Below, in pieces: positions 22,619 through 23,176 of a DNA stretch of 64,000 bases. Below the pieces are notes generated by a model that saw only the letters and a program-made list of their open reading frames with translations, was not told the origin of the DNA and did not search any database. Within the stretch, counting starts at the first letter, position 1; each line of letters opens with the position of its first letter. The translations under genes were made by a program, and so were the position numbers. The stretch covers positions 125,428,001 to 125,492,000 of the forward strand of contig NC_086097.1 in assembly GCF_963921235.1 (NCBI RefSeq), read 5' to 3'. This DNA is from Mobula hypostoma. Lineage: Eukaryota.

Positions 22619-23176
22619 CGAAGAAACCCGACGTAGATTGGGGGACCGCTTCGTCGAGCACCTCCACTCCATCCGCCACAACAGACAGGATCTCCCAGTA
22701 GCCACCCACTTCAACTCTGCTTCCCACTCCCATTCAGATATGTCCATACATGGCCTCCTCTACTGCCATGATGAGGCTAAACTCAGGTTGGAGAAGCAAC
22801 ACCTCATATACCGTCTAGGTAGTCTCCAGCCCCTTGGTATGAACATAGAATTCTCCAACTTCCGGTAATTCCCTCCCCCTCCCTTCCTCTATCCTTATTT
22901 CACTCTACCCCCTCCCCCAGCTCCCTCATGTTTCCACTTCCTTCTTCTACCACCCATTGCTTCCAGGGCTATGACGTCAATGCTTCCCCTCTCCCACCCC
23001 TTTGTCTTTCAAATTACCGGTCTTTCAACTGACGCTACAAGCATTCTTCAAATCCTTCCCCATCTTTCATTCTTCAGTCCTGACGAAGGGTTCCGGCCCG
23101 AAACATCGACTCATTGTTTCTGACTGATGCTGCCCGACCTGCTGAGTTCATCCAGTGTACTGAAGGTGTTGCTTTG
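22619..23176 (+). mobile_element. Penelope-like element 3' fragment (GIY-YIG C-terminus plus hammerhead-bearing terminal repeat)
   Basis: ORF RLGDRFVEHLHSIR...LPVATHFNS..HSHSDMSIHGL...LIYRLGSLQPLGMN. 14-bp TSD AACTCAAATAACCT (22605-22618 and 23177-23190). Confidence 0.88.
23075..23111 (+). ncRNA. Minimal type I hammerhead ribozyme motif (Penelope-associated)
   Basis: AGUC / CUGACGA / A GGG-UUCCGG-CCC / GAAA / CA / UC / GACU. The core is intact and stems I and II pair. The stem III palindrome ACGU has changed to ACAU. Confidence 0.7.

What the first reader, a model, noticed from the sequence alone, without database searches (positions are those of the whole stretch)
23075..23111. Family of minimal hammerhead ribozymes carried by Penelope terminal repeats across the window
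Seen: the short repeat scattered through this window is the 3' end of a Penelope-like element, since it follows GIY-YIG coding at 22619-22868 and at 15825-17070. Combining copies (23075-23111+, 25557-25592-, 16462-16493-, 42421-42455+, 55548-55585-, 16549-16585-) gives the consensus CAGUC CUGAYGA A GGG UCUCGG CCC GAAA CG UC^GACUG. This has stem I CAGUC/GACUG, the catalytic CUGANGA and GAAA boxes, an extra A before stem II, and a palindromic ACGU stem III. Established: Penelope-like elements carry minimal type I hammerheads thought to self-cleave as dimers. Inference: this genome holds a very high-copy ribozyme-bearing repeat that a standard annotation would call a SINE. Every copy here has at least one lesion, mostly from CpG decay.
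Basis: partly seen in the sequence, partly recalled or inferred. Interest (0 to 1): 0.72.

Follow-up and report, generated by a model that had tools for sequence, protein, structure and literature searches.

The report
Penelope retroelement minimal hammerhead relics
The repeated 38-base motif matches the published "minimal hammerhead" self-cutting RNA motif that Penelope-like jumping genes carry in their end repeats; here it sits in many short, mutated and likely inert copies in a ray-like fish genome, so the catch is correct but the kind is already known.

Summary
All six copies are at the stated places. They belong to a ~150-bp terminal repeat with 29 fragments in the window and none in the reversed window. 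The consensus meets the published metazoan Penelope min-HHR signature (PMC4209133): CUGANGA, one extra base, G10.1-C11.1, GAAA, loopless palindromic helix III. One copy lies in a single insertion (22619-23176, 14-bp target duplication) with the C-terminal end of a Penelope-type endonuclease. Its best relatives are ray proteins (73-92% identity). A CX4CXXC linker points to the Neptune/Nematis type. Inverted pairs and two classes of 3' end about 36 bases apart match the known Penelope 'tail'. None of nine full-length motifs is intact; 13 of 23 changes in the six named copies are CpG-type. Cleavage was not shown: no raw RNA reads, no covariation, no 5' ends at the cut site, and folding favours inactive forms. 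'SINE' is unsupported. The scan has noted this family many times before, in this genome (81 notes fit) and in shark genomes. Verdict: new member of a known kind, notable only for abundance.

The parts
23075..23112 (+). Minimal hammerhead motif, near-intact; lesion G16.2 to A breaks the helix III palindrome; predicted cut after 23107
   Evidence: contigs read G at 23105 in 64-76% of depth
22619..23176 (+). One 5'-truncated Penelope-like insertion (endonuclease end, pyrimidine tract, hammerhead, short tail) inside a Tc1-like repeat; 14-bp target duplication at 22605-22618 and 23177-23190
   Evidence: duplication; empty-site paralogues near 2300, 48070, 60340; joints skipping ~22617-23207
22620..22868 (+). 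C-terminal part of the GIY-YIG-type endonuclease, ending at a stop
22869..23074 (+). Pyrimidine-rich spacer ending in a CAG that overlaps helix I (splice-acceptor-like; inferred)
25557..25594 (-). Hammerhead motif with intact core and helices II/III; helix I broken (G1.1 to A; 5' strand cut by the inversion junction)
25465..25696 (.). Diverging inverted pair (long minus arm, short plus arm); 15-bp target duplication with 1 mismatch at 25450 and 25697
16549..16586 (-). Hammerhead motif with A6, G8, G12 and 1.1 lesions; upstream unit of an 87-bp partial tandem
16462..16493 (-). 5'-truncated hammerhead motif (no helix I 5' strand, no C3); second unit of the partial tandem
16302..16620 (-). Younger nested insertion (two motifs plus duplicated tail) inside the endonuclease coding of an older copy
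16644..17085 (-). Broken linker plus endonuclease coding with CX4CXXC (CKQNKCYNC); continues at 16301-16239
15924..15961 (-). Hammerhead motif of the older host copy (A6, G8, G12 lesions); tail runs to 15827
42419..42456 (+). Hammerhead motif (11.1, 16.2, helix I lesions), short arm of an inverted pair 42278-42508; 15-bp duplication with 1 mismatch at 42263 and 42509
55548..55585 (-). Hammerhead motif (G12, C17, 1.1 lesions) in a longer copy with an inverted partner at about 56018-56456+
34446..34483 (+). Decayed hammerhead motif downstream of an endonuclease remnant at 34010-34105
43769..43806 (+). Decayed hammerhead motif
54828..54865 (-). Decayed motif at the 5' edge of a 132-bp insertion (54737-54868) with a 14-bp duplication (1 mismatch)
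9953..10169 (.). Diverging inverted pair joined inside the hammerhead (12-base overlap)
14532..14705 (.). Diverging inverted pair, short minus arm and long plus arm
23808..23889 (.). Tiny inverted pair without hammerhead; 13-bp exact duplication at 23795 and 23890
24024..24171 (.). Diverging inverted pair, short minus arm and long plus arm
26972..27077 (+). Tail-only insertion (homology starts 9 bases after the cut site); 12-bp exact duplication at 26960 and 27078
57658..57733 (+). Short copy starting 4 bases before the predicted cut site

Best explanation
These are 5'-truncated, mutated copies of a very abundant Penelope-like retrotransposon whose terminal repeat carries the known minimal type I hammerhead motif, which likely cuts the RNA only of intact tandem master elements, as a dimer and probably with protein help, while the copies in this window are likely inert. 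Steps: (1) shown: the motif follows the endonuclease stop and a pyrimidine tract inside one insertion with a target duplication. (2) Shown: helix III has no loop (A15.1 C G U16.1), so it cannot close within one copy; inferred from PMC4209133: two motifs on one tandem transcript swap strands and pair the palindromes into two active sites, or element protein folds it (PMC11167929). (3) Inferred from PMC11167929: reverse transcription starts at two sites downstream of the cut site, here about +65 and +100 or beyond, on mostly uncut RNA. It runs back through the motif and usually stops early, leaving 60-1,250-bp pieces, often as inverted pairs with one long and one short arm. (4) Shown: after insertion CpG-type changes hit G8, 11.1/G12, 15.2/16.2 and C17/1.1, all in CpG; methylation as the cause is inferred.
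For: Motif matches the published consensus row for row, e.g. the Ixodes and sea-urchin entries with CUGACGAA and C G U C (text). Endonuclease-motif linkage with a 14-bp duplication. Duplications of 12-15 bp at 6 of 18 loci tested; longest match in 300 random window pairs was 10. Relatives are RT plus GIY-YIG ORFs of 800-1,000 aa with a CX4CXXC linker in 11 of 11 printed. 3' ends: 15 of 29 fragments at +102 to +105 (the model's end) and 9 of 29 at +63 to +77. 6 of 8 diverging pairs have one long and one short arm, as described in PMC8557442. Non-CpG core positions differ in 4 of 81 cells against 98 of 487 downstream in 9 full copies, P 0.0005, which fits selection in master elements. CpG core positions differ in 23 of 73 cells. 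Public contigs restore G16.2 in 64-76% of depth in 4 of 4 runs.
Against: No cleavage evidence here. No pair shows a change on both sides among 9 copies, and the covariation score is below shuffles. The consensus monomer folds into a rod that buries G5-G8 against the cut site (-14.5 against -10.5 kcal/mol for the open form). The dimer prefers an inactive duplex (-37.3) over the double hammerhead (-19.9) (secondary-structure energies only). 0 of 29 fragments start at the cut site; the nearest are -4, -6 and +7 to +9. The conservation test is biased, because copies were found with a profile seeded on motif-bearing copies, and a downstream block (about +20 to +31) is as conserved as the core. Rfam finds no hammerhead family. 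No Penelope RT domain lies in the window. In published tests min-HHR dimers cut weakly, 1 of 9 Xenopus dimers cut, and Anolis transposition in vitro did not need cleavage.
Confidence: 0.85

Rival explanations
1. The motif is kept by the element as a structural or protein-binding signal (or as a passenger) and rarely cuts; its fold mainly marks where cDNA synthesis stalls or switches template.
For: Folding disfavours the active dimer. No 5' ends at the cut, while 12 or so of 29 fragments have their homology begin inside or at the 5' edge of the motif, and two inverted pairs fold back at the helix I 5' strand (counted by eye, not tested against chance). PMC11167929: catalytic mutants transpose normally in vitro and no RNA ends map to the cut. 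PMC8557442: clades without hammerheads thrive.
Against: It is the catalytic bases (C3, G5, A9, A13, A14, A15.1, U16.1: 0 changes in 9 copies) that are kept, across phyla too. The Anolis motif does cut with protein and responds to C3/G8 swaps.
Confidence: 0.25
2. The short units are a separate non-autonomous family (SINE-like or non-LTR retrozyme) with its own unit length, mobilised by Penelope proteins.
For: Most fragments lack coding sequence; an 87-bp partial tandem of two motifs exists. Tandem retrozymes are reported in one chondrichthyan genome.
Against: 5' ends are ragged from +56 to more than 1 kb upstream. At least 4 copies run into endonuclease sequence. Contig depth over the endonuclease is as high as over the motif. 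The only tandem has 1.9 units with dead cores.
Confidence: 0.08
3. The hammerhead likeness is chance inside an ordinary repeat.
For: A loose CUGANGA...GAAA descriptor with one mismatch gives 12 hits against a shuffle mean of 4, maximum 11, so the boxes alone are weak; Rfam is silent.
Against: Both boxes, both helices, the extra base, G10.1-C11.1 and the palindrome all occur together, at the place in the element where the published motif lies.
Confidence: 0.02

Closest known systems
Minimal hammerheads (min-HHR) in pLTRs of metazoan Penelope-like elements (Cervera and De la Pena 2014, PMC4209133; main text parts 1-2 of 4 and supplement 2 part 2 read)
   Same: Type I topology; CUGANGA plus one extra base; G10.1-C11.1; loopless palindromic 15.2-16.2; 4-5 bp helix I; U-rich upstream; mostly single dispersed copies of truncated elements; pairs on opposite strands.
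   Different: Helix II is short (4 bp) against 7-8 bp in Schistosoma. No cartilaginous fish appears in the part of the alignment read or by name search of the supplement text held (file 1 could not be searched). Density here (9 full motifs in 64 kb) would far exceed the 4,000-9,000 per genome reported for coelacanth and Xenopus, if the window is typical.
Neptune/Nematis-type EN+ Penelope-like elements (PMC8557442, passages read)
   Same: C-terminal GIY-YIG endonuclease with a CX2-5CXXC linker; 5' truncation; partial tandems; inverted truncated partner; 30-40 bp tail at one end.
   Different: Clade not fixed by a tree; no (TA)n targeting is evident in the flanks read; no full-length copy or RT in the window.
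Poseidon element of Anolis carolinensis (PAc; PMC11167929, parts 1-2 of 4 read)
   Same: Two 3' end classes downstream of the hammerhead; AT-rich targets; cleavage and extension on both strands would explain diverging pairs.
   Different: PAc is Penelope/Poseidon clade without the zinc linker, and its ORF starts inside the ribozyme; here the ATG inside the core meets an early stop.
Non-LTR retrozymes of animals (bioRxiv 10.64898/2026.07.22.740005, parts 1-3 of 5 read)
   Same: Derived from Penelope pLTRs, type I hammerheads, reported in one chondrichthyan genome.
   Different: Defined as tandem units each with a complete motif; the window has no such array.

Membership tests
Metazoan PLE min-HHR | CUGANGA and GAAA boxes with NUH cut site | tested here: met
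   consensus of 29 fragments
Metazoan PLE min-HHR | One extra base between 9 and 10.1; G10.1-C11.1 pair | tested here: met
   A at 9b and G10.1: 1 change in 18 cells; pair G-C in 7 and G-U in 2 of 9 copies
Metazoan PLE min-HHR | Palindromic 15.2-16.2, no loop 3 | tested here: met
   ACGU in consensus; G16.2 is the majority letter in 4 of 4 runs
Metazoan PLE min-HHR | Helices I and II can pair | tested here: met
   5 and 4 bp in consensus; 67% and 86% of cells paired in 9 copies, against 18-49% for slid controls
Metazoan PLE min-HHR | Covariation in the helices | tested here: inconclusive
   0 of 9 pairs with a change on both sides in 9 decayed copies; too few independent master lineages
Metazoan PLE min-HHR | Located in the terminal repeat of a PLE | tested here: met
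   206 bp after the endonuclease stop within one duplicated-target insertion; both-end arrangement of a full element not seen in this window
Metazoan PLE min-HHR | Self-cleavage as dimer or with protein | not testable with these tools
   only contigs were available; folding energies do not favour the active dimer
Penelope-like element (EN+) | GIY-YIG endonuclease C-terminal to an RT in one ORF | tested here: met
   window fragments align to the C-terminus of RT+EN proteins P0001, P0010, P0013; GIY-YIG scores are below Pfam's cut-off; RT itself is absent from the window copies
Penelope-like element (EN+) | 5' truncation, partial tandems, inverted partners, optional 30-40 bp tail | tested here: met
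Neptune/Nematis clades | CX2-5CXXC zinc-finger-like linker | tested here: met
   CKQNKCYNC in the minus-strand copy
Neptune clade | RT phylogeny | not tested
   no labelled reference RTs were in hand
Canonical type I hammerhead (Rfam families) | Looped helix III and loop I/II tertiary contacts; Rfam score | tested here: not met
   no hit at E up to 1 in the window, nor at E up to 10 on two 141-bp stretches
Non-LTR retrozyme | Tandem units each with a complete motif | tested here: not met
   one 1.9-unit tandem with both cores damaged
SINE | Fixed 5' head from a pol III RNA | tested here: not met
   5' ends ragged and running into coding sequence; A/B boxes were not searched

The most novel reading that the evidence does not exclude
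Ray genomes hold the largest known stock of hammerhead motifs (order 10^5 or more). The young, still-intact minority, transcribed inside host introns, pair through the ACGU palindrome, in cis or between transcripts, and cut host pre-mRNAs when element protein is present. CpG methylation-driven decay at four catalytic positions would then be a host-level off switch for a genome-wide RNA-cutting load.
Probability: 0.06. Interest if true: 0.65.

Novelty: new member of a known kind. Interest (0 to 1): 0.2.

Why it matters
It extends a 2014 finding to a ray lineage and at very high density. I found no paper describing this family in rays: searches gave none, though a 2026 preprint covers one chondrichthyan genome and its supplements were closed. 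The role of these motifs in Penelope transposition is an open question (PMC8557442). A genome with this many dated insertions gives statistical material for it: where 5' ends fall relative to the cut site, how inverted pairs join, how fast CpG decay kills the core. The window itself adds no new mechanism.

Tried and rejected
No assembled genome is held for this window, so no genome-wide count or family-wide covariance model was possible. Rfam: no hammerhead hit; the miRNA hits are chance matches to inverted repeats. Pfam on the window fragments: no GIY-YIG. Sequencing runs: no RNA holder listed on record and no raw reads; X17 is only guessed to be RNA, and contigs cannot show ends, so the empty table of molecule ends says nothing on cleavage. 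Summed contig depth is not a copy number. In one search, 28 variant rows were not shown, so absence of a row at a core position is no proof of conservation. RNAalifold on 9 copies picked the rod fold, not helix I. A loose box-only descriptor barely exceeds shuffles. An open frame starting about 20 bases after the cut site, behind an AG, had no real match among the 58 session proteins, so an ORF start there is unsupported. Trans-complementation between window copies was considered and rejected: the only close same-strand pair (16549/16462) has no intact enzyme half. Lunse et al. 2016/2017 (dimer cleavage) is not held; I saw only its title and a review's sentence. The frame at 26420-26830 has no Pfam or protein hit, so no host gene was identified.

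Full report
Observation. The six stretches are present as described. A profile from 10 window copies finds 29 fragments of a ~150-bp repeat and none in the reversed window; they make up 4.5% of the window, 8.3% with the longer copies. Nine copies span the whole motif and none is intact in both core and helices. In the six named copies 13 of 23 differences are CpG-type. Ten of the 38 consensus positions are in CpG, including G8, G12, 15.2, 16.2, C17 and 1.1; the window's CpG observed/expected is 0.34.

Link to the element. 22619-23176 is one insertion into a Tc1-like repeat (label from its inverted ends and my recall, not from a database call). It has a 14-bp exact target duplication, and paralogous empty sites exist in the window and as joints in public contigs. 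It holds 82 codons that align to the C-terminus of reverse-transcriptase-plus-endonuclease proteins: 86% to P0001, 47% to the 803-aa P0013. The best hits are predicted proteins of Hypanus sabinus and Mobula hypostoma at 73-92%, so the host is likely a myliobatiform ray. Four of five relatives hit Pfam GIY-YIG just under its cut-off and P0010 hits RVT_1 at 6e-12; the window fragment alone does not hit GIY-YIG. The minus-strand copy 17085-15827 adds the CX4CXXC linker that PMC8557442 gives for Neptune and Nematis elements. It is broken by stops and frameshifts and by a nested younger insertion that carries the 87-bp partial tandem. No Penelope RT lies in the window.

Insertion anatomy. Measured from the predicted cut site, 15 of 29 fragments end at +102 to +105 (the end of my model, so possibly slightly beyond), 9 at +63 to +77 and 5 elsewhere. 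Of 8 candidate diverging pairs, 6 have one long and one short arm, one has two fairly long arms and one may be two separate insertions; 3 of the 8 have 13-15 bp duplications around the pair. Over 18 loci tested, 6 had duplications of 12-15 bp; 300 random pairs gave at most 10. This is the inverted partner and one-sided 30-40 bp tail described for Penelope-like elements (PMC8557442 passages). PMC11167929 traces the tail to two internal reverse-transcription starts and shows extension on both target strands. No fragment starts at the cut site (0 of 29), which fits that paper's finding that uncut RNA is the main template.

Is it a hammerhead? PMC4209133 lists, as traits of metazoan min-HHRs, a base between 9 and 10.1, G10.1-C11.1 and a palindromic 15.2-16.2. 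Its supplementary alignment has rows of the same build. All are met here. In 9 full copies the non-CpG core differs in 4 of 81 cells against 98 of 487 downstream (P 0.0005, base-matched). Two cautions apply: the copies were found with a motif-seeded profile, and a downstream block is as well kept. CpG core positions are not protected (23 of 73), as expected for decay after insertion. Public contigs laid on 22560-23280 (43,521, 34,663, 2,394 and 22,462 in runs X1, X5, X17, X9) read G at 16.2 in 64, 64, 76 and 67% of depth, and C17 as T in 21, 20, 16 and 60%. Depth is high over the endonuclease, the motif and the downstream block and low over the spacers, so many diverged subfamilies share those islands. 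There is no covariation in 9 copies and no Rfam hit, the latter expected for a motif without a helix III loop.

Does it cut? Not shown. By nearest-neighbour energies the monomer forms a rod that buries the first box against the cut site (-14.5 against -10.5 kcal/mol), and two copies prefer an inactive duplex (-37.3) to the double hammerhead (-19.9). These figures omit tertiary contacts. Published results are mixed: weak dimer cleavage and none for the monomer, 1 of 9 Xenopus dimers active, cleavage only with element protein in Anolis and not needed for insertion in vitro. I therefore commit to: a ribozyme of the master element, likely dimeric or protein-assisted (about 0.65), with the window's copies likely inert. 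A structural role without much cutting is the main rival.

Novelty. The kind is published. A 2026 preprint reports related tandem retrozymes in one chondrichthyan genome (its supplements were closed, so I could not see whether this family is among them). Five searches listed no paper on this family in rays; file 1 of the 2014 supplement could not be searched and Lunse et al. is not held. The scan itself has noted the family repeatedly: 81 notes in this genome fit the words, and shark genomes have similar ones. Their genome-wide counts (over 150,000 motifs; tens of thousands intact) are unchecked here, though 9 full motifs in 64 kb agrees in order of magnitude. Verdict: observation confirmed, interpretation supported except the SINE remark, new member of a known kind, interest 0.2.

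Noticed in passing
window 23066-23077+, 55586-55600-, 15962-15975-: The pyrimidine tract ends in CAG overlapping the 5' strand of helix I, like a splice acceptor; PMC4209133 reports an intron end at this place in Drosophila virilis Penelope. A second AG-ATG about 20 bases after the cut opens a short frame without homologues.
   Followed up: partly
window 25579-25603 and 42413-42434: Two inverted pairs fold back at the 5' strand of helix I, and the 54737-54868 insertion starts there too; several other 5' ends fall inside the motif. Not tested against chance.
   Followed up: partly
window 28436-29901: 55-bp tandem repeat, 26.9 copies, 94% matches.
   Followed up: no
window 24177-24240 and 46317-46383: Long palindromes that score weakly as mir-9256; they look like joined inverted ends of the Tc1-like family at 1925-2410, 22211-23266, 46386-46826, 47781-48184, 59988-60456.
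   Followed up: no
window 4705-5715+ and 19812-20849+: Reverse transcriptase frames of other LINE families (Pfam RVT_1, E 7.5e-16 and 1.7e-32), unrelated to the Penelope copies by tblastn.
   Followed up: partly
window 57796-57867+: tRNA-like match at 29.5 bits, not called by ARAGORN; possibly a SINE head or tRNA pseudogene.
   Followed up: no
window 26378-26833+: 151-codon open frame that looks protein-like but has no Pfam or database hit among longer proteins.
   Followed up: partly
P0001, P0002, P0005, P0011, P0012: Ray gene models named after host genes (DIPK1C, mucin-2, ATP5MC3, ABHD14A, LAMP3 isoforms) contain this endonuclease sequence; either annotation artefacts or exonised element pieces.
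   Followed up: no
window 14360-14469+ and 59752-59854-: More diverged subfamily of the same terminal repeat.
   Followed up: no
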